From an uncultured archaeon (lineage in GTDB: Archaea; Nanobdellota; Nanobdellia; Woesearchaeales; CAIVOO01), in NCBI GenBank assembly GCA_903904885.1, contig CAIVED010000021.1, forward strand, positions 17,456 through 81,455: a stretch of DNA of 64,000 nt, given 5' to 3'. Both the position numbers and the translations under genes were made by a program. Below the pieces are notes generated by a model, which saw only the letters and a program-made list of their open reading frames with translations, searched no databases and was not told the origin of the DNA. Positions within the stretch are counted from its first letter, which is position 1. Every line of letters begins with the position of its first letter. Shown one piece after another: positions 35,574 to 53,919 of the stretch.

Positions 35574-36257
35574 ATGATTAAAGCAGTCATCTTTGACCTG
35601 GACAACACCCTTATTGACTTCATGAAAATGAAGAGGGCTGCTGTTGAGGAGGCAGTTGATGCAATGATTGATGCCGGGCTTTCTGTTCCGAAAAAGAAGG
35701 CGCTGGAAGAATTGTACTCCATTTATTTTAAAGACGGCATCGAAGACCCCCAGATATTCCAGAAGTTTCTAAAGAAAGTATCCGGTTCTGTTGATTATAA
35801 GAAACTGGCATACGCGATTGTTGCCTACAGGAATGCTAGGACTGGTTTTTTGCATCCGTATGCAGGTACTCGTGAGACGCTTATGAAGTTGAAGGCTCGC
35901 GGTTTGAAATTAGCTGTTGTTTCTGACGCGCCCAAATTAAAAGCATGGATTAGGCTGGTTAACATGAAGATTGACCAATTCTTTGATGTTGTGGTGGCTT
36001 TGGAGGATACTGGACGCAGGAAACCTTCTGTTATGCCTTTCAAGGCGGCACTTAGGAAGTTGAAGGTTAAGGCTTCATCTTGCCTGATGGTCGGCGATTG
36101 GCCTGAAAGAGACTTACTTGGAGCTAAGAAGCTTGGAATGAAGACGTGTTTTGCTGCCTACGGCTACGAGCAGATTCCTAATATTAAAACAAAAAAAGAG
36201 AATGTGAAGGCGGATTATGTTGTTGAGTCTATTACTGAGCTTGCCAGAATTGTTTAG
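35574..36257 (+). CDS. HAD-superfamily hydrolase (phosphatase/phosphoglycolate phosphatase-like)
   Basis: Motif I is VIFDLDNTLID. Motif III/IV has MVGDWPERDLLGAKKLG. Confidence 0.7.
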   Translation: MIKAVIFDLDNTLIDFMKMKRAAVEEAVDAMIDAGLSVPKKKALEELYSIYFKDGIEDPQIFQKFLKKVSGSVDYKKLAYAIVAYRNARTGFLHPYAGTRETLMKLKARGLKLAVVSDAPKLKAWIRLVNMKIDQFFDVVVALEDTGRRKPSVMPFKAALRKLKVKASSCLMVGDWPERDLLGAKKLGMKTCFAAYGYEQIPNIKTKKENVKADYVVESITELARIV

Positions 36258-37165
36258 AGCCCGTGCTTTTTAGCTATTCCATTCTTTATCTTTTTTCCGA
36301 TTTCCTCTGCATCTTTTATTGTGAGCTCGCTTTTCAATAGCTTTCTTTTTTCTTTCTCTGGGATTTTCAGATAATTTTCAGCACTTACAACCCTTTCTCC
36401 AGATTCTACTTCAAGATTCTTTCTGGCGTCTCCTGCAATTTTTCCGCCTTTCCGGGCAGCAACCTTGTTTTCAGGAAAACCCTGTGCATCTTTGCTTCGG
36501 GCTATTTTTGTTGTTGATGCTTCTCCAAGCATTGTGAATATTAATTCCAAATCATCCATATGGTCTCTGAGGTTTTCTTTTTTGAGGCCTTTGAAATCCG
36601 TGTATTCATCTATGGTCTTGCCGAATGTTGCCTTGCTTATTTCATTTGTCAGGATTGCAAATTCAACATTCTGCTTTACTCCCCTGTTTTTCCACTCATC
36701 TGTAAGCTCCTGCCTTACAGCTATGCCCCGGACTCTTTTTTCAATCCACTCATCTGAATACCCTTTTGCCTTGTAAATCTCTTTCATTCTGGCCTGTGCC
36801 AATTCAGGGTTTTCTATTTCCTGCACTCTTTCATAGCCAACTTTGGCAAGCCATAACTTGAAAGGCTCTGCTTTGGGAGATGGGATTGATTGAATAAGAC
36901 GGAATAATGTTTCAACATTTGCACAATCTGTTTCTCTTAATTTCCCATCCTCAGCAGGCAATTTCAACTGGTTACATTTTGTAACCGTTTCATCTGAACC
37001 TTCTTCCATAATACGGTGTTTTAATACTTTCCAGTAATTGCGCGGGTCTGAACTGTCGCTCAAAACCCCCACTACATCAACTACAGAGAAATACCACTCA
37101 TTATCATGCCAAACCCTTCTTATTTTCTTATCCCGGAATACCACCAGGGCATTGTTTGCGTCCAT
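36254..37165 (-). CDS. Bro-N/KilA-N domain protein with DinD-like C-terminal region
   Basis: VVFRDKKIRRVWHDNEWYFSVVDVVGVL is a Bro-N signature. The tracked ORF is extended upstream by a TTG start through the promoter repeat. The start is reset to the ATG, which has a ctttataag TATA ~25 nt upstream. Confidence 0.55.
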   Translation of the reverse strand: MDANNALVVFRDKKIRRVWHDNEWYFSVVDVVGVLSDSSDPRNYWKVLKHRIMEEGSDETVTKCNQLKLPAEDGKLRETDCANVETLFRLIQSIPSPKAEPFKLWLAKVGYERVQEIENPELAQARMKEIYKAKGYSDEWIEKRVRGIAVRQELTDEWKNRGVKQNVEFAILTNEISKATFGKTIDEYTDFKGLKKENLRDHMDDLELIFTMLGEASTTKIARSKDAQGFPENKVAARKGGKIAGDARKNLEVESGERVVSAENYLKIPEKEKRKLLKSELTIKDAEEIGKKIKNGIAKKHGL

Positions 37166-37248
37166 TTTGATTGTAAGCGTATTCTCCCTTATAAAGCTCA
37201 CCAAAGCATGTCCAGTGAGAAATTCATATAGATAATAAACATAGATAT

Positions 37249-37290
37249 GGTATTTAAACCTTGCACGTGGCGATGATGGCAACGTGAGAA
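37249..37290. promoter_or_regulatory. Repeat/promoter module ggtatttaaaccttgcacgtggcgatg (copy 1), palindromic TATA plus CACGTGGCG box
   Basis: 26 nt (37250-37275) are identical to 38461-38486. On the minus strand it reads gtgcaaggtttaaatac, a BRE/TATA, upstream of the Bro-N gene. Confidence 0.55.
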
Positions 37291-37299
37291 TAAACTATT

Positions 37300-37827
37300 T
37301 TAGATCAGCTTTTTCATTTCAAACACAAATTCCTTTGCTCTTTGAAGTGAGGTTTTTGCCCTGGATTCCTTTGTCTTTTCAAGCATATCATACTGGAATC
37401 TTGAACGCTTGCCTAACTCAAAGCTGTAGAATTCTATAACCTCCTCTGCTCTTGCATTTGCAATTTCAAGAGCATCATCTTTTATGTTTTCATAGTCTTC
37501 CAATAGGTCCTTTTTTAATTTATTTAGAACAAGGACTATCAACGCATCATTTGTAACCTTGTGAGCAATCTTGTCCTGAATTTTGTAGCCAAGGTTCAAA
37601 AGAACAGCATTTGCAGCGTAGAACATTGAATAGTATGACGTGACTATAACCCAGAGATATGGCCTGAGGCTGCTCTGCATAAGCTCGCTTGCCACAGCAA
37701 GGGAAAGCTCTGCATTTTCAATGTATTTTTCCTTTGCTGCCTCATTTGTCTCTTTTTTCAGAAGACCTTCTTCTAAGTATCTTGAGAAGTTATTTTTCGC
37801 TTCCTTTGTTCTTGTTTCATCTATCAT
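37300..37827 (-). CDS. HEPN domain protein (PF05168-type), partner of the MNT gene
   Basis: VIVTSYYSMFYAANAVLLNLGYKI...RAEEVIEFY...RSRFQYD. Its start overlaps the MNT stop by 4 nt. Confidence 0.65.
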   Translation of the reverse strand: MIDETRTKEAKNNFSRYLEEGLLKKETNEAAKEKYIENAELSLAVASELMQSSLRPYLWVIVTSYYSMFYAANAVLLNLGYKIQDKIAHKVTNDALIVLVLNKLKKDLLEDYENIKDDALEIANARAEEVIEFYSFELGKRSRFQYDMLEKTKESRAKTSLQRAKEFVFEMKKLI

Positions 37828-38390
37828 TTTATCAGTTCATAATAGCTTTCAATTCCGTGAAGTATCACATTGTTTGCTATTGCTTCCGAGCCTACTGTCA
37901 TTTTTTTTGAATTTTTCATTTCAATGAATTCAGCTTCGCTGAATATGTTTATATGAAGATCAAGAGGAATTGTGTCTGCGATGCGGTTTATTTCCTTTAT
38001 TTCATCAGGTACTATGAACAGAAGGTCTATGTCTGAATTGTTTTTGGCTGTTTTCTTTGCGTGGGATCCAAAAAGCAGAAGTATGAAAAGTTTTGTTTTC
38101 AGTCCGGAGACAAAGCTGTCCAGCATTACCTTGAGGTTTTTGTTTTTCAAAGTATCTTCTCTTCTTTCATATTCTGCCCGATAAATTAGAGGATTTGGGC
38201 GGGGGATTAATTCTATTTTTGCTGATTTGCCGAAAGCTGTTGTTTTTAGTATTCCCGTTTTTTCAAGCCTTTTGACTATTGTATGGGCGGTCTTGTAATC
38301 CTTTCCTGCTATCCTGGCAAGTCTGCTTATGTTCATGTCACCCTTGTTTTCTATCAAAGCCTTGATTATTGATGTTTCTTTGGTTCTCAT
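37824..38390 (-). CDS. Minimal nucleotidyltransferase (MNT, Pol-beta fold) fused to N-terminal winged HTH
   Basis: The N-terminus has ISRLARIAGKDYKTAHTIVKRLEKTGIL, a wHTH. The NTase motif is LLFGSHAKKTAKNNSDIDLLFIVPDE. Confidence 0.7.
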   Translation of the reverse strand: MRTKETSIIKALIENKGDMNISRLARIAGKDYKTAHTIVKRLEKTGILKTTAFGKSAKIELIPRPNPLIYRAEYERREDTLKNKNLKVMLDSFVSGLKTKLFILLLFGSHAKKTAKNNSDIDLLFIVPDEIKEINRIADTIPLDLHINIFSEAEFIEMKNSKKMTVGSEAIANNVILHGIESYYELIK

Positions 38391-38459: not shown

Positions 38460-38500
38460 TGTATTTAAACCTTGCACGTGGCGATGGAGACGGCGCAGGG
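38460..38500. promoter_or_regulatory. Repeat/promoter module tgtatttaaaccttgcacgtggcgatg + gagacggcgcaggg (copy 2)
   Basis: Identical 26-mer to copy 1. The extension gagacggcgYaggg is shared with the 40541-40554 element. It lies upstream of the MNT-HEPN operon on the minus strand. Confidence 0.55.
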
Positions 38501-38503
38501 AGA

Positions 38504-39025
38504 TTATATCACATCACTCTTCGTGATTATTCCGGCAATCTTGTGCTTCTCCATTACTAAGACTGCAGAATTATGCTTGAGCAGGTCAATAACGGTTGTC
38601 AAAGGAGTCTTGCTGCCTATGGCTGGCAAAGGATCATCAAGCGCATCAGATACAATTTTCTTTCCGAAGTTTTCCAGTATGCTTCTTTCTGATATGCTCC
38701 CGATAATTCTATCCCGGGAATCCGTTACCGGCAGCTGCGATATGCCTTTCTGCTTCATTAAGGCAGCTGCTTTCCTTATTTCATCGCTTTCTTTTGCAAT
38801 GGTTACATTCCTGTTCATCACGTCTGCTGCTGTTTTTTCGTTTTTTAGCTCAATTGATTCCAGTGCATCAAATATCTTCTCTGCTTTCTCGTAGGTTGGG
38901 CTTACCCTTCCTGCCTCTATCTTGACTAATAACGACTGGGAAATTCCTGAAAGGCTTGACAGCTCTGCCTGGGTCAGTTCCAATGCTTTCCTTCTTCTCT
39001 TTATTTCTTCTATCTTTGGTAACAT
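38504..39025 (-). CDS. XRE-type HTH transcriptional regulator fused to tandem CBS domains
   Basis: N-terminal LTQAELSSLSGISQSLLVKIEAGRVSPTY is an XRE HTH. CBS pairs have motifs such as DVMNRNVTIAKESDEIRKAAALMKQKGISQLPV. Confidence 0.7.
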   Translation of the reverse strand: MLPKIEEIKRRRKALELTQAELSSLSGISQSLLVKIEAGRVSPTYEKAEKIFDALESIELKNEKTAADVMNRNVTIAKESDEIRKAAALMKQKGISQLPVTDSRDRIIGSISERSILENFGKKIVSDALDDPLPAIGSKTPLTTVIDLLKHNSAVLVMEKHKIAGIITKSDVI

Positions 39026-39077
39026 ATGAATATTATTGTCAAGAGCATTTATAATATACTACTATATAAGATTTTCC

Positions 39078-39566
39078 ATGAAAATAGCGAAACTTGAGCA
39101 ATTGATAGACATGCAGGATAAAAAGAGAGCTGCGGAGAAAAGGAAAAGCGAGCAGGAAGACGAGAAGTTCAGGCAGAAGACAGCGGCGTTCTGGAGAAAT
39201 GAAAAGCGCCTGGTTCCTGAAAAGCAGACGTTAGTGGAGAGGATAATCTCCTGGAGAGACTCCTTTGTCAAAACAGGGGCGTTCAGGAAGCTGTCCGGGG
39301 AAACAGTGATATTCTACGGCCCCTGGGGCCATGAACTGCCAAGATACGGGAATGGCTGCTGGTCGAGGGTCTATCTTGAAAAGACAGGTTCCTTGAAGTA
39401 TGCTGCGGGCTACAAGTGGATGGGAGGCAGAGGCTTCCTTGCTGAGGGTGACTTTGCGCAGAAGCTATCTTGTGATTATCTTAAGGCGCTGGCTGGGCAT
39501 CTTGAAAGCGGGGAGGTTTATGAGACGATTGCGGGGGAGGTTAAGCAGTCCTTAAAACCCTCTTAA
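39078..39566 (+). CDS. Hypothetical protein encoded by a conspicuously GC-rich gene
   Basis: About 50-55% GC by eye against an AT-rich background. Trp/Gly-rich (GPWGHELPRYGNGCWSRVY). The start is reset to the Met 25 nt downstream of a tttataatatac TATA. Confidence 0.45.
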   Translation: MKIAKLEQLIDMQDKKRAAEKRKSEQEDEKFRQKTAAFWRNEKRLVPEKQTLVERIISWRDSFVKTGAFRKLSGETVIFYGPWGHELPRYGNGCWSRVYLEKTGSLKYAAGYKWMGGRGFLAEGDFAQKLSCDYLKALAGHLESGEVYETIAGEVKQSLKPS

Positions 39567-40032
39567 AGAACAGGTTCTCTTTCTGCCCCGAACTTATCTT
39601 TTCAAGCTCGTAATCCTTAAGCAATGTTACCAGTTTTGTTTCACAATTCCTTACAGTTTCCGCGGCAGAAGAAATCCCCGAAACAATAAACACTGAAGGA
39701 ATGTTGCTTGAGACTATAGACGTCGCTGCCTGGAGGATATCTCTCTCCTTGTCAGTGTTTCGCACAAATAGCACATGTTTTTCTATATTCTCAAGGACTT
39801 TCATAATATCTTCCTTGAATTTATCAAGGGAAACTATATTGTCTATCAATATGCCAATATATCGGTTTAAAATCCCATTTTGAACAAATTGTGCAATATG
39901 CAAGCCCTTAACTCCATACCTATTGAAAATCTTGGTCCTAAGGTTTTGTCTCCGTTCAGCATCCTTTTCTTCTTCCAGCTTTCTAAGGGTAAGGCCCATT
40001 TTAAGCAGAAAAAGAATTTCCCGGTCATCCAC
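39541..40032 (-). CDS. Hypothetical protein (163 aa)
   Basis: Intact ORF with no assignable motif. It converges on the GC-rich gene with a 26-nt overlap. Confidence 0.4.
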   Translation of the reverse strand: MDDREILFLLKMGLTLRKLEEEKDAERRQNLRTKIFNRYGVKGLHIAQFVQNGILNRYIGILIDNIVSLDKFKEDIMKVLENIEKHVLFVRNTDKERDILQAATSIVSSNIPSVFIVSGISSAAETVRNCETKLVTLLKDYELEKISSGQKENLFFKRVLRTA

Positions 40033-40204
40033 ATAGTACTTGTAAAATTAAAGCTCTCCGGACCGGTATTGCTCCTTGACAATGCCTATTGTCTTTTCAT
40101 CCTGGATAAATGCCAGCTTTTTATCCTTCAGTTTGGTGGCAAATGATTTTATCTGGTCCAGCGACCAGTCAAGAATGCCTTTTACAGCGCCTTCTATGAT
40201 TTCG

Positions 40205-40459
40205 TCAGAGGACATCCCCGAACTCCTCCAAATATCTTGAGAGGCTCAGTTCGTTATTGTCCAGTATTATGGAACTGCCGGGCAGAATGACCATGTTTTC
40301 AACCTTTACCGGGATTTCTAAATATCTGTCAAGAACTTTGTTCCCTTCGGAATCAAGAACAAATTCCCCGTCGCAGGAGTATCCCAATTCCTTGAGCAAT
40401 AGCATCTTGGACTTCAGAGAAACTTCCTTCAGGGATACCAGTTCCATTTGGCTTGTCAT
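40205..40459 (-). CDS. Small hypothetical protein (84 aa)
   Basis: Intact ORF upstream of and divergent from radC. No GG terminus. Confidence 0.35.
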   Translation of the reverse strand: MTSQMELVSLKEVSLKSKMLLLKELGYSCDGEFVLDSEGNKVLDRYLEIPVKVENMVILPGSSIILDNNELSLSRYLEEFGDVL

Positions 40460-40555: not shown

Positions 40556-40580
40556 AAACATGCAGGGGAATTCTTAGTGC

Positions 40581-46760: not shown

Positions 46761-49085
46761 TTAACTCCCCGCATATAATTGTTCTTTAATCTCGTTTAGA
46801 GCTTTAAGGTACTTTTCTTTTCCACCAAAAGATTCTATTATTTCTACAGGTGTTCCAAATTCTCTAAATGGATTGACTTTCAAAATAGTCATTGTTTCTA
46901 TATTCTCTATTCCTTCGTCTGCATATTTGTCAAGAAGAGCTTCTATTATTTTACGCGCTTTTTCACCATATTTTGTGAAATAATTTCTCTTTTTAACATT
47001 ATTTGCTCTTTCTTTTCTTGTTAAAGGTTTTTGGTCAAAAGCGACATGGCAAACTAAGTCAAATTCATCGAAGTTTTTCCCAACTTCTTCTTTTAGTTCA
47101 TGAAGAAATATTCCATTTTCTATCATTTCCTGGATTATTGCAGATTTTTTATCTGTGGATTTCCATTTTTTTAGGAAATTGTCTAGTGACTTAAACTCTT
47201 TTGTCGCTGTTTTCTTTGTATAATCCTTTAACGATTCTGTGATTAGTTTTCCCTCTTTGTCAAATATTTGCACTCTTTCATTTAGAACTCTTACTTCTAC
47301 ATTATTAACATAATACTTTCTGGGTTTATCTGGCGATTCTTTCAGCAAATAAACTTGTTCCTGAACAGAACCATAAACTTTCTCAATCGGGGCAGTTTCA
47401 GGAATTATAATTTCTTCATCTGCTGTAAACTCCTCACATTGTACTGGTTCACCATCAAAGTCAGGATCAGCAAATAAATTTGTTACTTGTCTAAAATCCA
47501 TGATAGTAAAATAAGATTTATCATAGTCTTCTCTTATTCTGGTTCCCCTTCCAATAATCTGTTTAAATTCAGTCATAGATTGTATGTTGCTTTCCAGAAC
47601 AATTAATTTGCATGTCTGAGCATCAACCCCCGTATTAAGTAGTTTTGATGTTGTTGCTATAACTGGATATTTTGATGATGGGTCGATGAAATTATCTAGT
47701 TCTCGTTTACCCAGAATATCATCTCCTGTGATTTTTACAACATATTTTGAATTTTTTGTGACTAAATCCTTATTTTCATTACAGAGCGCTCTTCTCATTC
47801 TTTCAGCATGTTCTATATCTACACAGAAAACTATTGTTTTGTCAAATCTATTTGTCTTTTTTAGATATTCTGTAATTTTTTTAGCAACTAATATTGTTCG
47901 GGCGTCTAGTACAATATTCCTATCATAATCTTTTATATTATAGATCCTATCGGGTATTTCATTGCCATATTTGTCAATTTTTCCTTTTTCAGGTCTATAT
48001 CCTTCAACGTCTTTATCTATTGTAATTCTTATAACTTTATATGGTGCTAAGAACCCATCCTGAATTCCTTGTTTTAATGAATAAACATAAAGAGGTTTTC
48101 CAAAATAATGACTATTTGAAACATCTCTATCCTCTTTTGGTGTTGCAGTCAACCCAATTTGTGTTGCTTTAGGGAAATATTCTAAAACCTCTCTCCATTG
48201 AGAATTGATTGCTGCGCTACCTCTATGGCACTCATCTACAATTATTAAATCAAAGAATTCTTTTGAAAATTGCTTATAGATATTTTTCCATTCTTCGTTA
48301 CCTGTAACTGATTGGTATAATGCAAGGTAAACTTCATAAGATGTGTCAACCTTTCTGTTAGTTATTCTAGTCATAACCTTGCTGAAAATCTTAAAGTCAT
48401 TATTACGTGGTTGAGTTAATAATACATCTCTATCAGTTAAGAAGAGTACTCTTTTTTTTGTTTTTGATTCTAATAACTTATGCATGATTTGAGAAGCCAC
48501 ATAAGTTTTTCCAGTTCCAGTAGCTAAAACTAGCAAAATTCTATCTTGACCTTTAGCAACTGCTTCTACAGTTCTATTAATTGCAATTTGCTGATAATAT
48601 CTTGGTTTCTTTTGTCCAGCATAATAATCTTGTGTAATAATTTCTTCCTGCTTCTTGCTTATCCCTTTCCATTCCTTATATCGATTCCACAATTCATCTG
48701 GACTTGGAAATTTGTCCAAAGACAACTCTTTTTCAACTTCTTTAGAGTTACCTGTTTTATCATGCTCAATAAATCCATCTCCATTTGAGCTGTAAACAAA
48801 AGGAATATCTAGAATTTCTCCATAATCCAGAGCCTGCTGGATTCCCGAACCAATATCGTGATTATTATCTTTTGCTTCAATTATTGCTATTGGCAAATTT
48901 GGCTTATAATAAAGAATGTAGTCTGCTCTTTTCTTTTCCCCTCTTATTGTTTTATCTCCTTTTAAAAGAATTCTCCCATCTGTAAAAGTAACTTCTTCTC
49001 TAAACAATTGCCAGCCCGAATGTTTAATCGAAGGAGTTATGTATTTTGTACAAATATCCCTTTCAGAGAGTGATTTTTTATTCAT
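46761..49085 (-). CDS. hsdR: Type I R-M restriction subunit HsdR (SF2 helicase/endonuclease)
   Basis: Walker A is LVLATGTGKTYVA. The DEAH box is IIVDECHRGS. An N-terminal nuclease region is present. 774 aa. Confidence 0.9.
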   Translation of the reverse strand: MNKKSLSERDICTKYITPSIKHSGWQLFREEVTFTDGRILLKGDKTIRGEKKRADYILYYKPNLPIAIIEAKDNNHDIGSGIQQALDYGEILDIPFVYSSNGDGFIEHDKTGNSKEVEKELSLDKFPSPDELWNRYKEWKGISKKQEEIITQDYYAGQKKPRYYQQIAINRTVEAVAKGQDRILLVLATGTGKTYVASQIMHKLLESKTKKRVLFLTDRDVLLTQPRNNDFKIFSKVMTRITNRKVDTSYEVYLALYQSVTGNEEWKNIYKQFSKEFFDLIIVDECHRGSAAINSQWREVLEYFPKATQIGLTATPKEDRDVSNSHYFGKPLYVYSLKQGIQDGFLAPYKVIRITIDKDVEGYRPEKGKIDKYGNEIPDRIYNIKDYDRNIVLDARTILVAKKITEYLKKTNRFDKTIVFCVDIEHAERMRRALCNENKDLVTKNSKYVVKITGDDILGKRELDNFIDPSSKYPVIATTSKLLNTGVDAQTCKLIVLESNIQSMTEFKQIIGRGTRIREDYDKSYFTIMDFRQVTNLFADPDFDGEPVQCEEFTADEEIIIPETAPIEKVYGSVQEQVYLLKESPDKPRKYYVNNVEVRVLNERVQIFDKEGKLITESLKDYTKKTATKEFKSLDNFLKKWKSTDKKSAIIQEMIENGIFLHELKEEVGKNFDEFDLVCHVAFDQKPLTRKERANNVKKRNYFTKYGEKARKIIEALLDKYADEGIENIETMTILKVNPFREFGTPVEIIESFGGKEKYLKALNEIKEQLYAGS

Positions 49086-49156: not shown

Positions 49157-50320
49157 TCAATCATCTTCTTTTCTGTTTGATAAAGATACTCTATATCCCT
49201 TCTCTTTATCAACCATCTTATCTACATCCGAATCAATCTCTCCTTTTATCGCATCTGAATTTAGTCTTGAATAACAAATCATCGAATACACATCATAAAG
49301 CCCCTTCTTCTTAAGTAAAGCTATCAACTTAGTCTTGTCTTCAGGTAAAACAACAGATAAATACTCCCTAACCGCCGCTTTCTTATTCGAACCAAAGACT
49401 ACTTCAATTCCTTTCTGCTTGGCAAATAATATAATCTCATCTTTTAGCTCTTCCATCTTCTCTTCTGCATTCTTTTTAACTAGCTGCAATTTAGAATACT
49501 CATCAACCATCTTGACTCCAGCGTCTTTCTTGAATTCTTTGGCTGTTTTCAGCTCAAGCTCAATGTCATGCTTCCAGGCAGGGCAGATTGATTTATAAGA
49601 GCAGTAATCACACAAAGCAGTAACCTTAGTTGGAAATTCTTTTGCTTTCTCAACTTCCTTTATCAGTGCCATTGTATCGTCCTGAAGCTTCTTCAGCTGC
49701 GCATCTGTCCTTTCAGAAGTAACTTCCTTGTTGAAGGCAAGCATGTGCCACAGAAGAACTACTTTTTTGGCATCCTTGAAAGTATTCTTAACCCAGATTG
49801 AATACATAGCCAATTGCCTGTCTTCATCAGCCTCCTGCTGGTCTTTCATCCTGTTATTTGACTTGTAATCGCAGACATAATAAACACCGTTTTTGAAGCC
49901 TAATTTGTCCATTCTCACATGATAATGATTTCCATCAGGAAGATGCAGTCTGTCCTGTGTTTCAAGCCCTAAAATAGTCATCTGGTCAAAAGGAGCATAA
50001 TTATTATAGTAATCTGTCAAATACTTCTCTCCCATCAGCTTATAATTTTTAGCAGAATAATCTTTCTTTACAATTATTATGTCATCTGTCCAGCTCTTAT
50101 CCCATGAATCCCTGTAAAATTTAAGCAAGTCCTTCAAAGAATTCAGTTTCTGGAATTTTAAGTCCTTATACAGCTTCTCAAGCGCTTCATGAACGCGGCT
50201 GCCCATAAATGCTTCAACTGACTCTGCACCTTCAATCTTAACACCATCAATATACTGCAATTTATACTTATACCTGCATTGCGAAAATGTGCTTAGTTTG
50301 GAATGCGAGTAAGTGGCCAT
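49157..50320 (-). CDS. Cas4-like PD-(D/E)XK nuclease with Cys cluster (stand-alone)
   Basis: N-terminal SHSKLSTFSQCRYKYKLQYI. The core is VRMDKLGFKNGVYYVCDYKS...QLAMY. The C-terminus is CDYCSYKSICPAW. Paralog of the ORF at 14667-15482. Confidence 0.6.
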   Translation of the reverse strand: MATYSHSKLSTFSQCRYKYKLQYIDGVKIEGAESVEAFMGSRVHEALEKLYKDLKFQKLNSLKDLLKFYRDSWDKSWTDDIIIVKKDYSAKNYKLMGEKYLTDYYNNYAPFDQMTILGLETQDRLHLPDGNHYHVRMDKLGFKNGVYYVCDYKSNNRMKDQQEADEDRQLAMYSIWVKNTFKDAKKVVLLWHMLAFNKEVTSERTDAQLKKLQDDTMALIKEVEKAKEFPTKVTALCDYCSYKSICPAWKHDIELELKTAKEFKKDAGVKMVDEYSKLQLVKKNAEEKMEELKDEIILFAKQKGIEVVFGSNKKAAVREYLSVVLPEDKTKLIALLKKKGLYDVYSMICYSRLNSDAIKGEIDSDVDKMVDKEKGYRVSLSNRKEDD

Positions 50321-50365: not shown

Positions 50366-50412
50366 TGTCTAGTGGGTCGCGGCCGCCACGTCTTAAAATT
50401 AAATACTCAAAG
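50366..50412. promoter_or_regulatory. Divergent promoter region with central GC box gtcgcggccgccacgtc (NotI site) flanked by ttaaaattaaatac
   Basis: Motif-family member lying between the divergent Cas4-like (-) and NYN (+) genes. A tttataaat TATA (50344-50352) faces the minus-strand gene. Confidence 0.5.
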
Positions 50413-50427: not shown

Positions 50428-51162
50428 ATGGAAAAACGAAAATCTTATATAGCTCCTGAGCTTAAAAATTCATATTTAAGTCCCCAGTATGACCTCCTTG
50501 GAGGGAATGCTGGGCATCCTTCTCATGCCGTTGTTTTTGTAGATGCCAATAACTGGTATCATAATGTTAAGAAATTTATTGACCCAAGCGAAGTTGATAT
50601 TCTTAAAGTGGCTAAGTTTCTATGCGAAGTCAAAAAGTATAATTTAGTTGGGGTAAGATGGTACGCTTCAACTCCAAGCATTGCGGATGGGGAAAGAATG
50701 TACTACAAGCATATGGCTTTTTTGCAGCATCTCGAGAAAAAAGGAATAAAAGTTATTACCCGGAAACTTCAAAGAATATCAAATAAGGAAATCCAGAAGA
50801 AAAGAAGGGACACTATAGACAACCTGGACTTGTGCGATCATTGCAGGCCTCTGGTTGAATCTGTTTTTCTTGACTTGGCTGATCTGAAGAAAAAAGAAAA
50901 AGGCATAGATGTCTGGGTTGCGATCGACATGATAAAAGAGTCTGTAATTGACAAAAACTGCGATGTTTGCATACTTATCTCCGGAGATGCTGACTTCACT
51001 CCTGCACTGAGCCTCATAAAAAGCCATGGGAAGGAAGTGCTTACTGCGATGGTTCCTTTTGGATATTCTTCAGAACTTATAAGGGAATTTCCATTTTTTA
51101 TATTGAGAAAAGAAACTCTGATGAAATGCCTAAGAGGCTACAGAGAGAAACCTCCCAGTTAG
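50428..51162 (+). CDS. NYN-domain (LabA-like) putative RNase
   Basis: VVFVDANNWYHN...DVWVAIDM...ILISGDADFTPAL are NYN/PIN-like acidic motifs. Confidence 0.7.
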   Translation: MEKRKSYIAPELKNSYLSPQYDLLGGNAGHPSHAVVFVDANNWYHNVKKFIDPSEVDILKVAKFLCEVKKYNLVGVRWYASTPSIADGERMYYKHMAFLQHLEKKGIKVITRKLQRISNKEIQKKRRDTIDNLDLCDHCRPLVESVFLDLADLKKKEKGIDVWVAIDMIKESVIDKNCDVCILISGDADFTPALSLIKSHGKEVLTAMVPFGYSSELIREFPFFILRKETLMKCLRGYREKPPS

Positions 51163-51175: not shown

Positions 51176-51445
51176 TCAGACCCTGATGCCCTTTGCAATT
51201 GCCTTCCTCAGTTTTTCGCTTGGGTTGTATATCCATGTTATGCCCTTCAGGCCAACAAGAATCTTCCCGCTTTTTTCAAGATAGTCAAGCACTATCATGA
51301 GTGTGTTATGGTTTACCTGCCTTGGAAGCTTTCTTTTCAGCTCAGCGATTTTCATTACGCTGCCTTCCATTTTTTTCAGGACAGTCTCAACCATCAAAAC
51401 GGTGTTCAATGTTGGTGAGTGTTCAAGCATTTGCATTTTAATCAC
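51176..51445 (-). CDS. Small winged-helix-like protein (89 aa)
   Basis: MKIAELKRKLPRQVNHNTLMIVLDYLEKSGKILV is wHTH-like. Confidence 0.4.
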   Translation of the reverse strand: MIKMQMLEHSPTLNTVLMVETVLKKMEGSVMKIAELKRKLPRQVNHNTLMIVLDYLEKSGKILVGLKGITWIYNPSEKLRKAIAKGIRV

Positions 51446-51526
51446 TTTTAGTTATTAATTAATAACTATAAGTTATTAACTTATATATAAATCTTTCGGC
51501 CTGAACAAGTAAGAATTAGAAGGGAA

Positions 51527-51566
51527 GTATTTAATCCTACGCCGTTGCGGCCGCAACTGCGTAACC
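51527..51566 (+). promoter_or_regulatory. TATA (gtatttaatcc) + 20-bp near-perfect palindrome gccgttgcggccgcaactgc
   Basis: Motif-family member. It is inserted between ctttcgg and ttaatattgttaac, two blocks that are contiguous in the paralogous flank at 52513-52540. Confidence 0.5.
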
Positions 51567-51629: not shown

Positions 51630-52193
51630 TTAACCAACCAGCGCATGTTCTATCTTGTAGCTGACGCCCCACGTATCAAAAACCTGCTTTAGCACGTCCT
51701 CTTTTGAAGCAGAGACAAGAATTGAGCCGGTGCCCATGAATCTTCCACCCACCTCTTTTAGAATCCCCTCCCTGCCTCCCCTTCCCTTAAGCAGGTAATG
51801 GAACTGGACCCGTTTGGAAGGGGAAAACTTCTTCAAAGTATAGACAAAAATGCTCTTGTTCTCAAAACCCATGACCTGGGCCATGAATTTCCGGTTTTTA
51901 ATGCTGTATCCCTCATTAAGCAGTGTTTTTGAGAGGGTATTTCCTGAAACAAGCGCCCCAAGAGTCAATATGCTTATATGAGCATCAATTATTTTTGAAA
52001 GCGAATTGACAAGATCAATGCTTTTCTTTTCATCAGAATCATCTATTATTATGCACAGGTCAATATCTCTTGGATTTTTTTTGCCTCTTGAGGAAGAGCC
52101 GAACATGATAACATCAAATATTTTGCCTGATTTTATCCATTTTCTTATTTCAGAGAATGAGTTTTTTTGCATTTTCCACCTCGGTTTTGACAA
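51630..52193 (-). CDS. Nucleotidyltransferase (MNT-type, Pol-beta fold) with C-terminal extension
   Basis: IMFGSSSRGKKNPRDIDLCIIIDDSDE is the GS...D.D NTase motif. It overlaps the upstream HEPN gene by 44 nt. Confidence 0.7.
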   Translation of the reverse strand: MSKPRWKMQKNSFSEIRKWIKSGKIFDVIMFGSSSRGKKNPRDIDLCIIIDDSDEKKSIDLVNSLSKIIDAHISILTLGALVSGNTLSKTLLNEGYSIKNRKFMAQVMGFENKSIFVYTLKKFSPSKRVQFHYLLKGRGGREGILKEVGGRFMGTGSILVSASKEDVLKQVFDTWGVSYKIEHALVG

Positions 52194-52482
52194 GTTTAGC
52201 GATCGTTTCGCTTATCTCCTTGTTGTATGAATCCCGGTAAAACCTGAAAAGTTTTGAAGAAATAGCATAAATTTCAGGTGAAACCTTTTCAAGCATCTCA
52301 AATCTTTCAGTGTGATTTGCCCCGAGCTTGCCTGTTTTCCTGATAAGCTCCAAATCACAGAGCTCAACAAGCGCCTTGTAATAAAGAGTAACTGCTGTAT
52401 TGAATTTTCTTCTTGAGAATGAATATTCAGCTATTTCAATGAACTCCCTGAAATTTTTCTCTATTACCTCTGTTTCAGCCAT
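52150..52482 (-). CDS. HEPN domain protein (PF05168-type)
   Basis: FNTAVTLYYKALVELCDLELIRKTG...RFYRDSY. Confidence 0.65.
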   Translation of the reverse strand: MAETEVIEKNFREFIEIAEYSFSRRKFNTAVTLYYKALVELCDLELIRKTGKLGANHTERFEMLEKVSPEIYAISSKLFRFYRDSYNKEISETIAKLVKTEVENAKKLIL

Positions 52483-52546
52483 GTTAAGAGTATTAACCTA
52501 TAAAGGATATTTAAACCTTTCGGTTAATATTGTTAACTGGGTTATA

Positions 52547-53230
52547 TTAAACCTTCCAACTCCCGCTCGCATCTTCGCGGGAACAGACAGAATAGTCAAT
52601 CTTTCGCTTAACATGCGTTTCAAAGCATTCGCTGGCAAGCAGGGGAGTATTATTGTTCCCTGATAAATGCCCCAATAAAACCAAAGAAAGGTTATTGCCT
52701 TTGCTTTGAACCAGCGAGCTTGCGGTTTCATTGCTCAGATGGCCCTGGTCCGAGAGAATCCAGTTTTTCAGGAAATGGGGATAGCGCCCGTTCTTGAGCA
52801 TCTCAACGTCATGGTTGGATTCCAACAGCACAGCATTCAAATGCTTCATGGCCGTTTCCATCTGGGGCGTAACCATGCCTGTGTCTGTAAACAGCCCGAA
52901 TTTGCCGATAACAAACCCTGAAGAGGGAACATTATGGGAAGTCAAAACAGGCTTTATCTCCAGGTTTTTAATTTTAAAATTCCCTGTGAACCTGTTAACA
53001 TACAGCGGGATATTATAGCGCCGGGAAATCACACCTGCACCGCAGACATGGTCTGAATGTGAATGGGTTATAACACAGGCATCAACATTTTCTAAACTTT
53101 TTCCGAGAGAATTCATCCTTTTCTCAAGCTCCCTCCCGCTCTTGCCGGCATCGATAAGAACAGAAACTCCTTTGTCCTCAACCAGGCAGCAGTTGCCGTT
53201 GCTCCCGGATGCTATAACTGAGATTTCCAT
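52547..53230 (-). CDS. Metallo-beta-lactamase-fold hydrolase
   Basis: VITHSHSDHVCGAG is the HxHxDH motif. 227 aa. Confidence 0.75.
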   Translation of the reverse strand: MEISVIASGSNGNCCLVEDKGVSVLIDAGKSGRELEKRMNSLGKSLENVDACVITHSHSDHVCGAGVISRRYNIPLYVNRFTGNFKIKNLEIKPVLTSHNVPSSGFVIGKFGLFTDTGMVTPQMETAMKHLNAVLLESNHDVEMLKNGRYPHFLKNWILSDQGHLSNETASSLVQSKGNNLSLVLLGHLSGNNNTPLLASECFETHVKRKIDYSVCSREDASGSWKV

Positions 53231-53277
53231 TTATTTTAAGAAACAATGAAGCTGTTTATAACTCTTTTTATTGTGGT

Positions 53278-53919
53278 CTATCTCCTTAAAAAGAATTTAT
53301 TAGCTATTTTCTTGCTTATGACTGCATTCATATCGCATTCTTTCAGCAAATCCAGCGAAATATTCCCCTCAAAATGATAATTTTCAACCATCTTGCCAAG
53401 CATTTTTACCTGTCTCACCAAGGGAGCAAAATCACCATCACCGCTTATCAGGATTGAAGTGTCATACTTGTTCTCATAGGCATCCCGAAGCATATCTATT
53501 GCAAGATGAATATCATCTCCCTTTATTGTGAAAAACTCCTTGCCGTCTTTGTTAGTCCTTCTCTGCCTTTTGCATAGAATAACATTAAATCTATGTATTT
53601 TCACCAATCTTGCAAAAAACTGCTGCTGTTTCCTGAAAGACTCGGGGTTTATCTGCTGTTTCAGGGAAGCATTATAGTAATAAACAGAAACTAGATATCG
53701 TTGACCAACAATTTTCTTTATGTAGCTTTCAAAATCAAACTTGAAATCAGTATATCTTTCATTTATTGACTTTATTCCATAAAGAAAATTCGCTCCATCT
53801 ATATAAACTGAAACGCGATTAGAATGGTACCCGTCTTGCGTTTGCAAGAACGGGGAACACAATGCGGTATTCTGCAAAGCAGATTCCGGCGCTACCTGGC
53901 ACCAATGAATGTTATTCAT
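53278..53919 (-). CDS. NYN-domain (LabA-like) putative RNase, paralog of the 50428-51162 gene
   Basis: VSVYIDGANFLYG...IHLAIDM...ILISGDGDFAPL. Confidence 0.7.
   Translation of the reverse strand: MNNIHWCQVAPESALQNTALCSPFLQTQDGYHSNRVSVYIDGANFLYGIKSINERYTDFKFDFESYIKKIVGQRYLVSVYYYNASLKQQINPESFRKQQQFFARLVKIHRFNVILCKRQRRTNKDGKEFFTIKGDDIHLAIDMLRDAYENKYDTSILISGDGDFAPLVRQVKMLGKMVENYHFEGNISLDLLKECDMNAVISKKIANKFFLRR

What the first reader, a model, noticed from the sequence alone, without database searches (positions are those of the whole stretch)
36254..53919. Dense defence/accessory island: type I R-M with solo Cas4-like nuclease, 2x NYN, 2x HEPN-MNT, MBL, RadC-PIN, Bro-N, HTH-CBS
In about 18 kb the island carries hsdRMS, a Cas4-like Fe-S PD-(D/E)XK nuclease immediately upstream of hsdR, NYN RNase-like paralogs that bracket a block of wHTH + MNT + HEPN + MBL-fold hydrolase, a second HEPN-MNT pair, a RadC(JAB)-PIN operon, a Bro-N/DinD-like protein and an HTH-CBS regulator. 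Several are linked by the shared GC-box promoter module. Two sub-modules do not correspond to named defence systems as far as I can tell: NYN-[wHTH, MNT, HEPN, MBL]-NYN at 50428-53919, and the Cas4-like gene adjacent to hsdR. Either could be an uncharacterised functional unit, for example an RNA-targeting abortive-infection module.
Basis: partly seen in the sequence, partly recalled or inferred. Interest (0 to 1): 0.6.

Follow-up and report, generated by a model that had tools for sequence, protein, structure and literature searches.

The report
Mosaic defence island in DPANN archaeon
About 17 kb of a small-genome (DPANN) archaeon mixes conserved resident genes with imported defence genes; the proposed new NYN-MBL module is a chance neighbourhood, and the Cas4-like nuclease in front of the restriction genes is a recurring pairing that was noted in 2017 and remains unexplained.

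Summary
The second "HEPN" (110 aa) could not be verified. Neither HEPN carries the Rx4-6H RNase motif.

The region is a mosaic, not one unit. Conserved DPANN genes (HAD, HTH-CBS, RadC, Cas4-like, MBL, NYN213, RFC) alternate with imported cassettes. The imported block with hsdRMS has GC3 of 0.21-0.32, against 0.41-0.54 for residents.

The NYN-[wHTH, MNT, HEPN, MBL]-NYN module is refuted. None of 82 MBL loci has an NYN, MNT or HEPN-like neighbour. NYN213 homologs sit among ribosomal and other housekeeping genes. The two NYNs are only 27% identical.

The Cas4-like/R-M link is real but facultative. In 23 of 77 species loci, R-M genes lie within three genes downstream of the Cas4-like gene, almost always on the same strand. 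Only 2 of 73 have them upstream. Other homologs have no R-M nearby. Hudaiberdiev et al. (2017) already noted this adjacency.

A GC-rich palindrome next to TATA boxes recurs seven times, only in this region.

Verdict: an ordinary defence island with one uncharacterised but known association.

The parts
35574..36257 (+). HAD-family hydrolase; resident left flank of the variable region
   Evidence: Pfam HAD_2, E=2e-30. In the relative whose MBL is 78% identical, a HAD gene lies next to MBL with only a ParE toxin-antitoxin pair between them.
36254..37165 (-). Bro-N / DinD-like single-gene defence candidate (PADLOC PDC-S13). The likely start is the ATG at 37165 (residue 40 of the ORF).
   Evidence: Pfam Bro-N, E=4.7e-12. 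PDC-S13, E=7.5e-127, from residue 40. Weak DinD hit. A TATA-like box lies about 25 nt upstream. Homologs sit directly beside the Cas4-like gene in L016, L019, L050 and L086, and about 1.3 kb from it in L015.
37300..37827 (-). HEPN-domain protein (PF05168 type) without the Rx4-6H RNase motif; second gene of the MNT1-HEPN1 pair
   Evidence: Pfam HEPN, E=2.5e-6. PDC-M05B, E=4e-4. No Rx4-6H motif.
37824..38390 (-). Winged-HTH fused to a minimal nucleotidyltransferase (MNT1); overlaps HEPN1 by 4 nt
   Evidence: Pfam Polbeta, NTP_transf_2 and HTH_24. PDC-M05A, E=1.6e-9. GSx(n)DxD motif at residue 108.
38504..39025 (-). HTH_3 + tandem CBS regulator; probably a resident gene
   Evidence: Pfam CBS, E=1.9e-20, and HTH_3, E=9.5e-12. 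GC3 is 0.45, like the core genes. A homolog (E=7e-27) sits next to MBL in L005.
39036..40459 (.). Three ORFs without a family assignment: 39036-39566(+), 39541-40032(-) and 40205-40459(-)
   Evidence: No Pfam or PADLOC hits.
40581..41246 (+). RadC family (JAB domain) protein
   Evidence: Pfam RadC, E=2.8e-46. NCBIfam RadC, 258.6 bits against a cut-off of 180. RadC lies convergent to the Cas4-like gene, with a type I R-M system between them, in L054 and L090 as well.
41224..41631 (+). PIN-domain protein overlapping the 3' end of RadC by 23 nt
   Evidence: Pfam PIN, E=6.9e-7.
41579..42481 (-). 300-aa protein with an N-terminal winged HTH; first gene of the low-GC imported block
   Evidence: Pfam HTH_5, E=2e-4. 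GC3 is 0.28. Homologs are embedded in type I R-M loci in L050 and L054.
42605..43857 (+). Three small genes of the imported block: a 92-aa ORF (weak SNase-like hit), a 139-aa ORF, and a ClpP-like 184-aa ORF
   Evidence: Pfam CLP_protease, E=2.3e-25, and SNase, E=0.0037. NCBIfam ClpP-related hits are below cut-off. GC3 is 0.30-0.32.
43865..45325 (-). hsdS, type I specificity subunit with two target-recognition domains
   Evidence: Pfam Methylase_S, two stretches, E=2.8e-38. GC3 is 0.26.
45322..46758 (-). hsdM, type I N6-adenine methyltransferase
   Evidence: Pfam N6_Mtase, E=2e-75, and HsdM_N. GC3 is 0.24.
46761..49085 (-). hsdR, type I restriction subunit (EcoEI-type C terminus), with its own TATA-like box about 30 nt upstream
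   Evidence: Pfam ResIII, EcoEI_R_C and HSDR_N. PADLOC REase_I, E=0, 1130 bits. GC3 is 0.21. TTTATAAA lies in the 72-nt gap.
49157..50320 (-). Cas4-like (RecB-family) Fe-S PD-(D/E)XK nuclease with a roughly 130-aa C-terminal extension. It belongs to a conserved DPANN-wide solo family and is resident in this genome.
   Evidence: Pfam PDDEXK_1, E=2.7e-27, and Cas_Cas4, E=7e-5. Homologs are 55-68% identical and the same length across Woese-, Pace-, Nano-, Iain- and Aenigmarchaeota. Catalytic residues and the four Cys are invariant. Fold matches are to ACE1, AdnAB, RecB and Cas4. GC3 is 0.41.
50428..51162 (+). NYN244, an NYN-domain protein of a small accessory family; divergent from the Cas4-like gene
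   Evidence: Pfam NYN, E=8e-16. Only 16 cluster representatives at E<=1e-30. Homologs lie near the Cas4-like gene in L028, L043, L047 and L068.
51176..51445 (-). 89-aa putative winged-HTH protein, preceded by a 2 x 21-nt palindromic repeat at 51438-51479 (a likely operator)
   Evidence: Weak SelB-wing_2 hit, E=0.003. Palindrome reported. Homologs occur in several DPANN loci.
51630..52193 (-). MNT2, a minimal nucleotidyltransferase with a roughly 85-aa C-terminal extension
   Evidence: Pfam Polbeta, E=9e-7. GSx(n)DxD motif at residue 32. Weak MntA hit, below cut-off.
52150..52482 (-). 110-aa helical-bundle protein upstream of and overlapping MNT2; HEPN identity unproven
52547..53230 (-). MBL-fold hydrolase; a conserved DPANN gene, not island cargo
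   Evidence: Pfam Lactamase_B. 62-88% identical to Woese- and Nanoarchaeota proteins, with 112 invariant columns among 8 sequences. Its contexts elsewhere are housekeeping genes or toxin-antitoxin pairs.
53278..53919 (-). NYN213, a LabA-like NYN protein; a conserved DPANN gene
   Evidence: Pfam NYN, E=3e-24. 57-76% identical homologs. Its contexts elsewhere are ribosomal-protein, STT3 and HAD neighbourhoods.
54025..55239 (+). Replication factor C large subunit; resident right flank
   Evidence: NCBIfam NF003229, 358.9 bits against a cut-off of 280.
33721..33761 (.). GC-box/TATA composite site c1
37249..37289 (.). GC-box/TATA site c2, upstream of Bro-N; 26 nt identical to c3
38461..38486 (.). 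GC-box/TATA site c3, upstream of MNT1. Together c2 and c3 bracket the MNT1-HEPN1 pair as direct repeats.
40517..40557 (.). GC-box/TATA site c4, the promoter region of RadC-PIN
50372..50407 (.). GC palindrome c6, between the divergent Cas4-like and NYN244 genes
51526..51566 (.). GC palindrome c7, upstream of the 89-aa wHTH gene
53947..53987 (.). GC palindrome c5, flanked by two TATA boxes between the divergent NYN213 and RFC genes
   Evidence: The same site is present in same-species contigs L001-L003.

Best explanation
The segment is a mosaic variable region of a DPANN archaeon (Woesearchaeota/Nanoarchaeota-like). It is not a single system.

Conserved resident genes are interleaved with small defence or accessory cassettes that were acquired independently and work on their own. 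The resident genes are HAD, HTH-CBS, RadC, the Cas4-like nuclease, MBL, NYN213 and RFC. The cassettes are:
- a Bro-N/DinD-like single-gene candidate (PDC-S13);
- a wHTH-MNT + HEPN pair;
- a PIN gene behind RadC;
- a recently imported low-GC block carrying a complete type I R-M system with a wHTH gene and small ORFs;
- an accessory NYN protein;
- a second MNT pair.

The type I system should work as such systems are known to: HsdM2S methylates the host target sites, and HsdR translocates along and cuts unmethylated DNA. This is inferred from intact subunits and was not tested.

The R-M block lies between the convergent Cas4-like and RadC genes. The position directly 3' of the Cas4-like gene is a recurrent docking place for R-M operons in DPANN genomes (shown). 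The simplest reading is that the Cas4-like gene is a stand-alone DNA-end-processing nuclease and that defence cargo accumulates next to it (inferred).

The apparent NYN-...-NYN bracket is a coincidence of two conserved genes (MBL, NYN213) lying beside accessory ones.

Many genes of the region share a clade-specific promoter architecture: a GC palindrome placed upstream of, or between, TATA boxes. This may give them common regulation (inferred).
For: Identity and intactness of the parts.

Resident status of MBL, NYN213 and the Cas4-like gene:
- They have 55-88% identical, same-length homologs across DPANN.
- MBL and NYN213 homologs sit in housekeeping contexts, and some Cas4-like homologs do too.

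Ancestral HAD-MBL adjacency in the relative whose MBL is 78% identical.

No co-occurrence of MBL with NYN, MNT or the 110-aa protein in 82 loci.

Imported status of 41.6-49.1 kb:
- GC3 is 0.21-0.32, against 0.41 for the Cas4-like gene and 0.44-0.54 for core genes.
- In 19 of 25 other loci the R-M genes have lower GC3 than the adjacent Cas4-like gene.
- hsdR has its own TATA-like box.

Docking position:
- Homologs of the window's Hsd proteins lie downstream in 17 loci and upstream in 3, with equal sequence sampled on both sides (p=0.003).
- R-M-type gene clusters occur within three genes downstream in 23 of 77 loci, and within three genes upstream in 2 of 73.
- Pfam and PADLOC tallies of the two nearest genes show 19 DNA methylases downstream and none among the top upstream families.
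- No Hsd homolog was found in 82 control MBL loci, 520 kb in total.

The arrangement Cas4-like -> type I R-M <- RadC recurs in L054 and L090.

No integrase, no tRNA at the borders and no flanking long repeats.

The literature agrees. DPANN solo-Cas4 genes lie adjacent to R-M genes (PMC5704561). DPANN genomes are enriched in single-gene PADLOC candidate systems (PDCs), SoFic and AbiE, and are poor in R-M (PMC12988326).
Against: - 'Resident' and 'imported' are inferred from conservation, context and composition, not from a genome-wide phylogeny.
- The source genome's other contigs were not available.
- The strong directional bias, the same-strand arrangement and the short gaps (median 30 nt) between the Cas4-like gene and downstream R-M genes are more than a neutral hotspot model strictly requires. 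They fit functional coupling equally well.
- Gene calls in the comparison loci came from a crude ORF caller.
- Only the 80 best of 226 species hits were examined.
- Functions of the MNT pairs, the NYN proteins, Bro-N and RadC-PIN are not known experimentally.
Confidence: 0.7

Rival explanations
1. The Cas4-like nuclease is a functional accessory of the R-M systems downstream of it. It would process the DNA ends made by restriction, as RecBCD or AddAB do in bacteria, or as the Cas4-family protein ACE1 is associated with Argonaute. The outcome would be destruction of invader DNA, repair of self-cuts, or salvage of nucleotides in organisms that cannot make them.
For: - The association is directional, same-strand and tightly spaced. 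It involves type I, type II/III and type IV restriction genes in about 30% of species loci.
- R-M is otherwise under-represented in DPANN (PMC12988326).
- The nuclease and Fe-S residues are invariant.
- The best fold match is the Argonaute-associated Cas4 family protein ACE1.
- The same inference was made by Hudaiberdiev et al. 2017.
- In a Methanomethylicaceae genome the homolog directly follows McrBC, and hsdSM lie 3.4 kb downstream.
Against: - About 70% of loci have no R-M genes within three genes downstream.
- Homologs in Diapherotrites and Methanofastidiosum sit among metabolic genes.
- The partners are of unrelated R-M types and also include non-R-M cargo such as Bro-N, MNT and NYN.
- The R-M genes are compositionally foreign to the Cas4-like gene.
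- hsdR has its own promoter-like box.
- No protein-protein or activity data exist.
Confidence: 0.25
2. NYN-[wHTH, MNT, HEPN, MBL]-NYN (50428-53919) is a self-contained RNA-targeting abortive-infection module.
For: - The genes are contiguous, and NYN213-MBL-110aa-MNT2 lie on one strand with short gaps.
- The arrangement is kept in same-species metagenome contigs.
- There are weak PADLOC hits: HEC-09 for the NYNs, and RTasMBL and LmuA for the N terminus of MBL.
Against: - None of 82 MBL loci has an NYN, MNT or 110-aa homolog nearby.
- The closest MBL relatives (85, 78, 71 and 66% identity) have PFK, ParE toxin-antitoxin pairs or housekeeping genes as neighbours.
- NYN213 homologs lie among ribosomal-protein and other housekeeping genes.
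- The two NYNs are 27% identical.
- The HEPN identity of the 110-aa protein is unproven and it has no Rx4-6H motif.
Confidence: 0.03
3. The whole 36-54 kb stretch is one integrated mobile element (virus, plasmid or integrative element) carrying defence cargo.
For: - Bro-N domains and Cas4-like nucleases are common in viruses. This is general knowledge; PMC5704561 supports it for Cas4.
- A ClpP-like gene gives a weak hit to a head-maturation protease model.
- GC content is low between 42 and 50 kb.
Against: - No integrase, transposase, capsid or replication genes were found among the ORFs scanned.
- The only tRNA is 5.7 kb outside the region.
- There are no long flanking direct repeats.
- GC3 is heterogeneous, with core-like genes inside the region.
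- No relatives of the Cas4-like family were found in 2.9 million viral contigs.
- The embedded genes MBL, NYN213, Cas4-like and HTH-CBS are conserved chromosomal genes elsewhere.
Confidence: 0.04
4. The genes of the region form a regulon. A transcription factor encoded in the island (the 89-aa wHTH, HTH-CBS, the wHTH of MNT1, or the 300-aa wHTH protein) binds the GC palindrome and co-regulates the defence genes. This is compatible with the best explanation.
For: - There are seven composite sites, far above chance, all within 20 kb of a 64-kb window.
- The palindrome lies upstream of, or between, TATA boxes of Bro-N, MNT1, RadC, Cas4-like/NYN244, the 89-aa wHTH gene and NYN213/RFC.
- A related site lies between divergent genes, one of them the antitoxin gene of a ParE toxin-antitoxin pair, in the relative L181, whose MBL is 85% identical.
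Against: - A loosely defined 'GC block + TATA' pattern is not above chance.
- Part of the shared sequence (AAGGTTTAAATA) is probably just this organism's general BRE/TATA consensus.
- The housekeeping RFC gene shares a site.
- Four sites lie about 75-85 nt from the start codon, with a second TATA box closer in.
- No binding data exist, and only 64 kb of the genome was seen.
Confidence: 0.3

Closest known systems
Solo-Cas4 of DPANN archaea adjacent to restriction-modification genes (Hudaiberdiev et al. 2017, PMC5704561)
   Same: It is a stand-alone Cas4-family Fe-S nuclease in a DPANN genome without CRISPR-cas nearby, and it is adjacent to R-M genes. That paper inferred an uncharacterised defence or repair role.
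   Different: The window protein scores best with PF12705 (PDDEXK_1) and only weakly with PF01930 and TIGR00372. It also carries a roughly 130-aa C-terminal extension. Whether it is the same clade as the one in that paper's table was not checked. This analysis adds that the association is directional (R-M lies 3' and on the same strand), how often it occurs, and that the R-M genes are compositionally foreign.
Defence islands and hotspots flanked by core genes (for example the E. coli pan-genome hotspots, PMC10121019)
   Same: Variable defence cargo of many kinds accumulates at a fixed position next to conserved genes, and the content differs between related genomes.
   Different: The setting is DPANN archaea. 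No mobile-element hallmarks were seen. The cargo is dominated by small one- or two-gene systems plus R-M. The anchor gene is itself a nuclease that could plausibly take part in defence.
Type I restriction-modification systems (HsdR/HsdM/HsdS; EcoEI-type HsdR C terminus)
   Same: All three subunits are present, full length and in one operon-like array. The PADLOC REase_I match covers the full length.
   Different: Nothing unusual in the system itself. It has a low-GC foreign composition, and a wHTH gene of a family that recurs within or near related type I loci.
ACE1, the Argonaute-associated Cas4 family protein (PDB 9iab), and UvrD-Cas4 fusions linked to type III R-M (PMC5704561)
   Same: These are precedents for Cas4-family nucleases recruited as partners of non-CRISPR defence systems. 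ACE1 is the best fold match.
   Different: The structural match is weak (TM-score 0.26-0.34, from a model with pLDDT 58). There is no Argonaute gene here and no helicase fusion.
MNT-HEPN modules (the type VII toxin-antitoxin system MntA-HepT; PADLOC candidate PDC-M05)
   Same: An adjacent or overlapping minimal nucleotidyltransferase with a GSx(n)DxD motif and a small helical partner. The hits to PDC-M05A and PDC-M05B are weak.
   Different: Neither helical partner has the Rx4-6H RNase motif that defines HepT toxins. The second partner is not demonstrably HEPN. MNT1 carries an N-terminal wHTH.

Membership tests
Type I restriction-modification system | HsdR with a helicase/translocase core and a nuclease N terminus | tested here: met
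   ResIII, Helicase_C, HSDR_N and EcoEI_R_C. PADLOC REase_I, 1130 bits, covering residues 1-772.
Type I restriction-modification system | HsdM N6-adenine methyltransferase and HsdS with two target-recognition domains, encoded together with HsdR | tested here: met
   N6_Mtase, E=2e-75, plus HsdM_N. Methylase_S in two stretches. The genes are contiguous, with a 2-nt gap and a 4-nt overlap.
Type I restriction-modification system | Restriction and methylation activity | not testable with these tools
   Needs methylome data or expression experiments.
Cas4 / RecB-like PD-(D/E)XK Fe-S nucleases | Catalytic D...(D/E)xK and QxxxY motifs | tested here: met
   D138, D151-Y-K153 and Q169-x3-Y173 are invariant in 13 homologs.
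Cas4 / RecB-like PD-(D/E)XK Fe-S nucleases | Four cysteines for a 4Fe-4S cluster: one N-terminal, then CxxCx5C at the C-terminal side | tested here: met
   C15, C237, C240 and C246 are invariant.
CRISPR-associated Cas4 (TIGR00372 / PF01930) | Score above the family cut-off, and linkage to cas1/cas2 or a CRISPR array | tested here: not met
   TIGR00372 scores 29.4 bits against a cut-off of 65. PF01930 is marginal at 23.4 bits against 22.7. None of the ORFs scanned with Pfam (about 28-64 kb of the window) is a cas gene, and no repeat array was found in 33-57 kb. The protein is 'Cas4-like', not Cas4.
HepT-MntA (type VII toxin-antitoxin; HEPN RNase toxin + MNT antitoxin) | MNT with a GSx(n)DxD active site | tested here: met
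   Present in both MNT1 and MNT2.
HepT-MntA (type VII toxin-antitoxin; HEPN RNase toxin + MNT antitoxin) | HEPN partner with the Rx4-6H RNase motif | tested here: not met
   No Rx4-6H motif in HEPN1 or in the 110-aa protein.
HEPN domain (second pair, 52150-52482) | Significant sequence or fold match to HEPN | tested here: inconclusive
   No Pfam hit at E<=5. All Foldseek PDB matches have E>0.1; they include HEPN toxins (1wwp, 6m6w, 7ae8) among cytochrome b562-like bundles.
Proposed NYN-MNT-HEPN-MBL module | Conserved co-occurrence of the components across genomes | tested here: not met
   None of 82 MBL loci has an NYN, MNT or 110-aa homolog nearby. The 3 NYN213 contexts lack MBL, MNT and HEPN, and so do the 4 contexts of close MBL relatives.
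Cas4-like + R-M association | Co-occurrence above background and consistent arrangement across genomes | tested here: met
   R-M genes lie within three genes downstream in 23 of 77 loci and upstream in 2 of 73. Hsd homologs lie downstream in 17 loci and upstream in 3, p=0.003. None was found in 82 control loci. The association is facultative.
IetAS (AAA+ ATPase + subtilase defence pair), considered for 54025-56971 | An IetA-type ATPase paired with an IetS-type protease | tested here: not met
   The ATPase is the replication factor C large subunit, above the NCBIfam cut-off. The IetA and IetS hits are weak and partial.
Integrated mobile element | Integrase or transposase, attachment-site repeats, or a tRNA target at a border | tested here: not met

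The most novel reading that the evidence does not exclude
The conserved DPANN Cas4-like nuclease is a generic 'back-end' partner for restriction systems. R-M operons of any type are repeatedly installed directly 3' of it because it processes the DNA ends they create. DPANN archaea lack RecBCD or AddAB and cannot synthesise nucleotides (general knowledge, not tested here), so the pair could both destroy invading DNA and salvage nucleotides from it. A clade-specific GC-palindrome regulon may tie these genes together.
Probability: 0.2. Interest if true: 0.65.

Novelty: new member of a known kind. Interest (0 to 1): 0.35.

Why it matters
DPANN archaea have tiny genomes and mostly lack CRISPR, so how they defend themselves is poorly known. 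This window shows a typical arsenal for the group: a type I R-M system plus small one- and two-gene candidate systems. These sit between conserved genes.

The comparison with other genomes shows that the place just downstream of a conserved Cas4-like nuclease is where R-M systems of several types keep landing. That gives a concrete, testable handle on the 2017 suggestion that solo-Cas4 takes part in an unknown defence or repair pathway.

The analysis also removes a false lead. The NYN-MBL 'module' is made of conserved resident genes.

Tried and rejected
- A loose definition of the GC-box (any 12-mer with at least 10 G/C placed 3-12 nt before a TATA-like hexamer) gave 9 sites against 7.4 expected. 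It was dropped in favour of the specific palindrome and the BRE/TATA consensus.
- Sequence searches of the PDB with the Cas4-like, NYN213 and 110-aa proteins gave nothing useful.
- The AlphaFold model of the Cas4-like protein, built from 13 sequences, was poor (pLDDT 58). Its C-terminal domain (pLDDT about 80) found no informative fold match.
- The Cas4-like family was not found in viral contigs.
- Reading RFC + subtilase as an IetAS defence pair was rejected.
- A single integrated element was rejected: no integrase, tRNA border or flanking repeats.
- Co-transfer of the Cas4-like gene with hsdRMS was rejected on GC3. In addition, the loci with the most similar HsdR (L054, L067) do not have the most similar Cas4-like protein.
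- The Rfam scan found only tRNA-Phe.
- DNA for the contig of the relative whose MBL is 78% identical was unavailable, so the rearrangement between HAD and MBL could not be aligned.

Full report
**What is there**

- Minus strand, from the left: Bro-N/DinD-like (PDC-S13, E=7.5e-127), HEPN (PF05168), wHTH-MNT and HTH-CBS.
- Then three ORFs with no family assignment.
- Plus strand: RadC overlapping PIN.
- Then a 300-aa wHTH protein, and three small plus-strand ORFs, one of them ClpP-like.
- Minus strand: hsdS, hsdM and hsdR, and a 387-aa PD-(D/E)XK protein 72 nt upstream of hsdR.
- Plus strand: a 244-aa NYN protein.
- Minus strand: an 89-aa putative wHTH, MNT2, a 110-aa ORF, an MBL-fold protein and a 213-aa NYN protein.
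- The flanks are a HAD hydrolase on the left and the replication factor C large subunit on the right (358.9 bits against a cut-off of 280).

The exceptions are as follows.
- The 110-aa 'HEPN' has no HEPN hit even at E<=5. Its single-sequence model (pLDDT 76) is a helical bundle. Its PDB matches are all non-significant and include HEPN toxins only among generic four-helix bundles.
- Neither it nor the Pfam-supported HEPN1 has an Rx4-6H motif. Both MNTs do have GSx(n)DxD.
- The two NYN proteins are only 27% identical.

**Which organism**

The best homologs of three different proteins are all from Woesearchaeota, Pacearchaeota, Nanoarchaeota and other DPANN MAGs. Identical genes occur in several metagenome assemblies. 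The window therefore comes from a DPANN archaeon.

**The NYN-...-NYN module is not a unit**

- The MBL protein is 62-88% identical to hundreds of DPANN proteins. Among 8 aligned sequences, 112 columns are invariant. The window copy differs only by a shortened variable loop.
- In the relative whose MBL is 85% identical, MBL follows a phosphofructokinase gene.
- In the 78% relative, MBL sits next to a HAD hydrolase with only ParE toxin-antitoxin pairs around it.
- In the 71% and 66% relatives its neighbours are housekeeping genes.
- I fetched 80 metagenome loci with MBL homologs, plus two from earlier look-ups, and searched them with all proteins of the window's island. None had a homolog of NYN213, NYN244, MNT2 or the 110-aa protein.
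- NYN213 is likewise a conserved DPANN family (57-76% identity). Three homologs lie among ribosomal-protein, Spt4/Rpb7, STT3 and HAD genes.
- NYN244 belongs to a small accessory family, with only 16 cluster representatives at E<=1e-30.

The bracket is therefore two conserved resident genes that happen to lie beside accessory ones. With no HEPN RNase motif present, an RNA-targeting abortive-infection reading has no support.

**The Cas4-like gene**

The 387-aa protein has the full Cas4/RecB signature. Across 13 homologs, D138, D151-x-K153, Q169xxxY173, C15 and C237xxC240x5C246 are invariant. It scores best with PF12705 and is below the Cas4 equivalog cut-off. The region has no cas genes and no CRISPR array, so it is Cas4-like and not CRISPR-associated Cas4.

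An AlphaFold model was poor (pLDDT 58). Even so, its best fold matches are the Argonaute-associated Cas4 family protein ACE1, AdnAB, RecB, RecE and Cas4. The C-terminal extension of about 130 aa found no match.

The family is 55-68% identical and of constant length across DPANN. It also occurs in Methanomethylicaceae and Methanofastidiosum. It was not found in viral contigs.

**Its association with restriction-modification**

I fetched 80 species-representative genome loci with 10-kb flanks.
- Homologs of the window's HsdM, HsdR or HsdS occur in 20 of them: 17 downstream of the Cas4-like gene and 3 upstream. The sequence sampled on the two sides was about equal (p=0.003).
- Clustering the three nearest genes on each side gives three large neighbour families, identified from the Pfam tallies and the Hsd searches as two kinds of DNA methylase and a helicase-nuclease. 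They occur downstream in 23 of 77 loci and upstream in 2 of 73. All but two of the downstream genes lie on the same strand as the Cas4-like gene.
- Pfam and PADLOC tallies of the two nearest genes agree. Downstream there are N6_Mtase in 11, N6_N4_Mtase in 8, ResIII in 8, GmrSD_N in 3 and Vsr in 3; PADLOC reports type I and type II methyltransferases. Upstream there are no methylases among the top families. Instead there are HTH proteins, Fic/SoFic, ParE, CARF and PDC-S13.
- The first downstream gene is on the same strand in 61 of 77 loci, with a median gap of 30 nt.
- The 82 MBL loci (520 kb), used as a control, contain no Hsd homolog.
- In L054 and L067, hsdR directly or nearly directly follows the Cas4-like gene, as in the window. 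In L054 and L090 the type I system lies between convergent Cas4-like and RadC genes, also as in the window.

**But it is facultative, and the partners are foreign**

- About 70% of loci show no R-M genes within three genes downstream.
- Homologs in a Diapherotrites genome and in Methanofastidiosum sit among ordinary metabolic genes.
- In Methanomethylicaceae the gene follows McrBC.
- In other loci the position is taken by Bro-N, MNT/HEPN or NYN244 homologs.
- In the window, hsdRMS has GC3 of 0.21-0.26, and the adjacent wHTH and ClpP-like genes 0.28-0.32. The Cas4-like gene has 0.41 and clear core genes 0.44-0.54.
- In 19 of 25 other loci the R-M genes are also lower in GC3 than the neighbouring Cas4-like gene.
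- hsdR has its own TATA-like box about 30 nt before its ATG.
- The loci with the most similar HsdR do not have the most similar Cas4-like protein.

The most economical reading is a resident nuclease gene next to which imported R-M operons dock. A true functional partnership in processing restricted DNA ends remains possible, at about 0.2-0.25.

The adjacency has been reported before. Hudaiberdiev et al. 2017 wrote that in several DPANN genomes the adjacency of solo-Cas4 to R-M genes implies an uncharacterised defence pathway (PMC5704561).

**Structure of the region as a whole**

- The relative whose MBL is 78% identical has HAD and MBL almost adjacent. In the window they are 16 kb apart.
- HTH-CBS has a homolog next to MBL in L005 and a core-like GC3.
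- RadC, the Cas4-like gene, MBL and NYN213 belong to conserved families.
- Between them lie cassettes of lower GC3: Bro-N, the MNT1-HEPN1 pair, PIN, the imported R-M block, NYN244 and the 110-aa ORF upstream of MNT2. MNT2 itself has a core-like GC3 of 0.45.
- No integrase, no border tRNA and no flanking repeats were found.

The region is therefore a mosaic built by several events, not one island insertion. Its content matches a 2026 survey, which found DPANN enriched in single-gene PADLOC candidate systems (PDCs), SoFic and AbiE, and poor in R-M (PMC12988326).

**The GC-box**

- The repeat finder and direct inspection give seven composite sites: 33721, 37249, 38461, 40517, 50372, 51526 and 53947.
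- They combine a GC palindrome with a BRE/TATA-like AAGGTTTAAATAC. The palindrome GTCGCGGCCGCCACG occurs at 4 sites against 0.28 expected. The extended BRE/TATA consensus occurs at 4 sites against 0 expected.
- The palindrome lies upstream of the TATA box of Bro-N, MNT1, RadC, NYN244, the 89-aa wHTH gene and NYN213.
- At several sites a second, opposite TATA box lies on the other side. This makes divergent promoters for Cas4-like/NYN244 and for NYN213/RFC.
- For four sites a second TATA box lies closer to the gene.
- A related site lies between divergent genes, one of them the antitoxin gene of a ParE toxin-antitoxin pair, in the relative whose MBL is 85% identical. No such site was seen in the more distant DPANN loci.
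- All seven sites lie within 20 kb of the 64-kb window.
- Sites c2 and c3 are identical over 26 nt and bracket the MNT1-HEPN1 pair.

It suggests shared regulation, or recombination at a common promoter element. A looser definition of the motif was not above chance, and only 64 kb of the genome could be examined.

**Verdict**

This is a real, ordinary defence and accessory mosaic in a DPANN genome. One proposed novel module is refuted. The other is a genuine, previously noted and still uncharacterised Cas4-like/R-M association, for which this analysis adds direction, frequency and composition data.

Noticed in passing
window 41579-42481(-); L050:17928-19001, L054:14260-15303, L057:8877-9917: Homologs of the 300-aa protein with an N-terminal winged HTH are embedded inside type I R-M loci (L050, L054) or lie directly upstream of the Cas4-like gene (L057). 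It may be an R-M-associated regulator family.
   Followed up: partly
window 51438-51479: A 2 x 21-nt repeat (TTAATAACTATAAGTTATTAA, 85% matching) forms a near-perfect palindrome just upstream of, and overlapping, the start of the 89-aa wHTH gene. It looks like an autoregulatory operator.
   Followed up: no
window 37250-37275 and 38461-38486: Two 26-nt identical direct repeats (promoter motif plus part of the GC-box) bracket exactly the MNT1-HEPN1 pair. This suggests the cassette was inserted or duplicated at a shared promoter element.
   Followed up: partly
window 54025-56971: An AAA+ ATPase followed by an S8 subtilase gives weak IetA and IetS PADLOC hits. The ATPase is the replication factor C large subunit, so this is not an IetAS defence pair.
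   Followed up: yes
window 33791-35539; L004:8731-9387 and 12241-12777: The ORFs of 190 and 161 aa share homologs, and the 196-aa ORF matches one of these weakly, so they look like a small paralogous family (weak DUF6491 hits for the first two). Related genes lie near MBL in the relative whose MBL is 71% identical.
   Followed up: no
window 32416-33321: An AAA_33 kinase-like ORF and a PIN_3 toxin-like ORF with low GC3 (0.37-0.40) lie outside the reported coordinates. The variable region may extend further left, and GC-box site c1 at 33721 lies next to them.
   Followed up: no
window 42605-43857; L073:19505-19879: The imported low-GC block carries a ClpP-like protein and a small SNase-like ORF beside hsdS. 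A homolog of the SNase-like ORF lies next to HsdR in L073.
   Followed up: no
L062 and L089 (same MAG, CAYHEY01); L078:3308-4228: Some DPANN genomes carry two copies, or an extra partial copy, of the Cas4-like gene. This agrees with the 2017 remark that some DPANN genomes encode two solo-Cas4 proteins.
   Followed up: no
window 6516-11684(+): A very long ORF of 1722 aa lies upstream in the window. It was not examined.
   Followed up: no
window 51630-52193(-), residues ~100-187: MNT2 has a C-terminal extension of about 85 aa after the nucleotidyltransferase domain, with no family match. Its fold and role are unknown.
   Followed up: no
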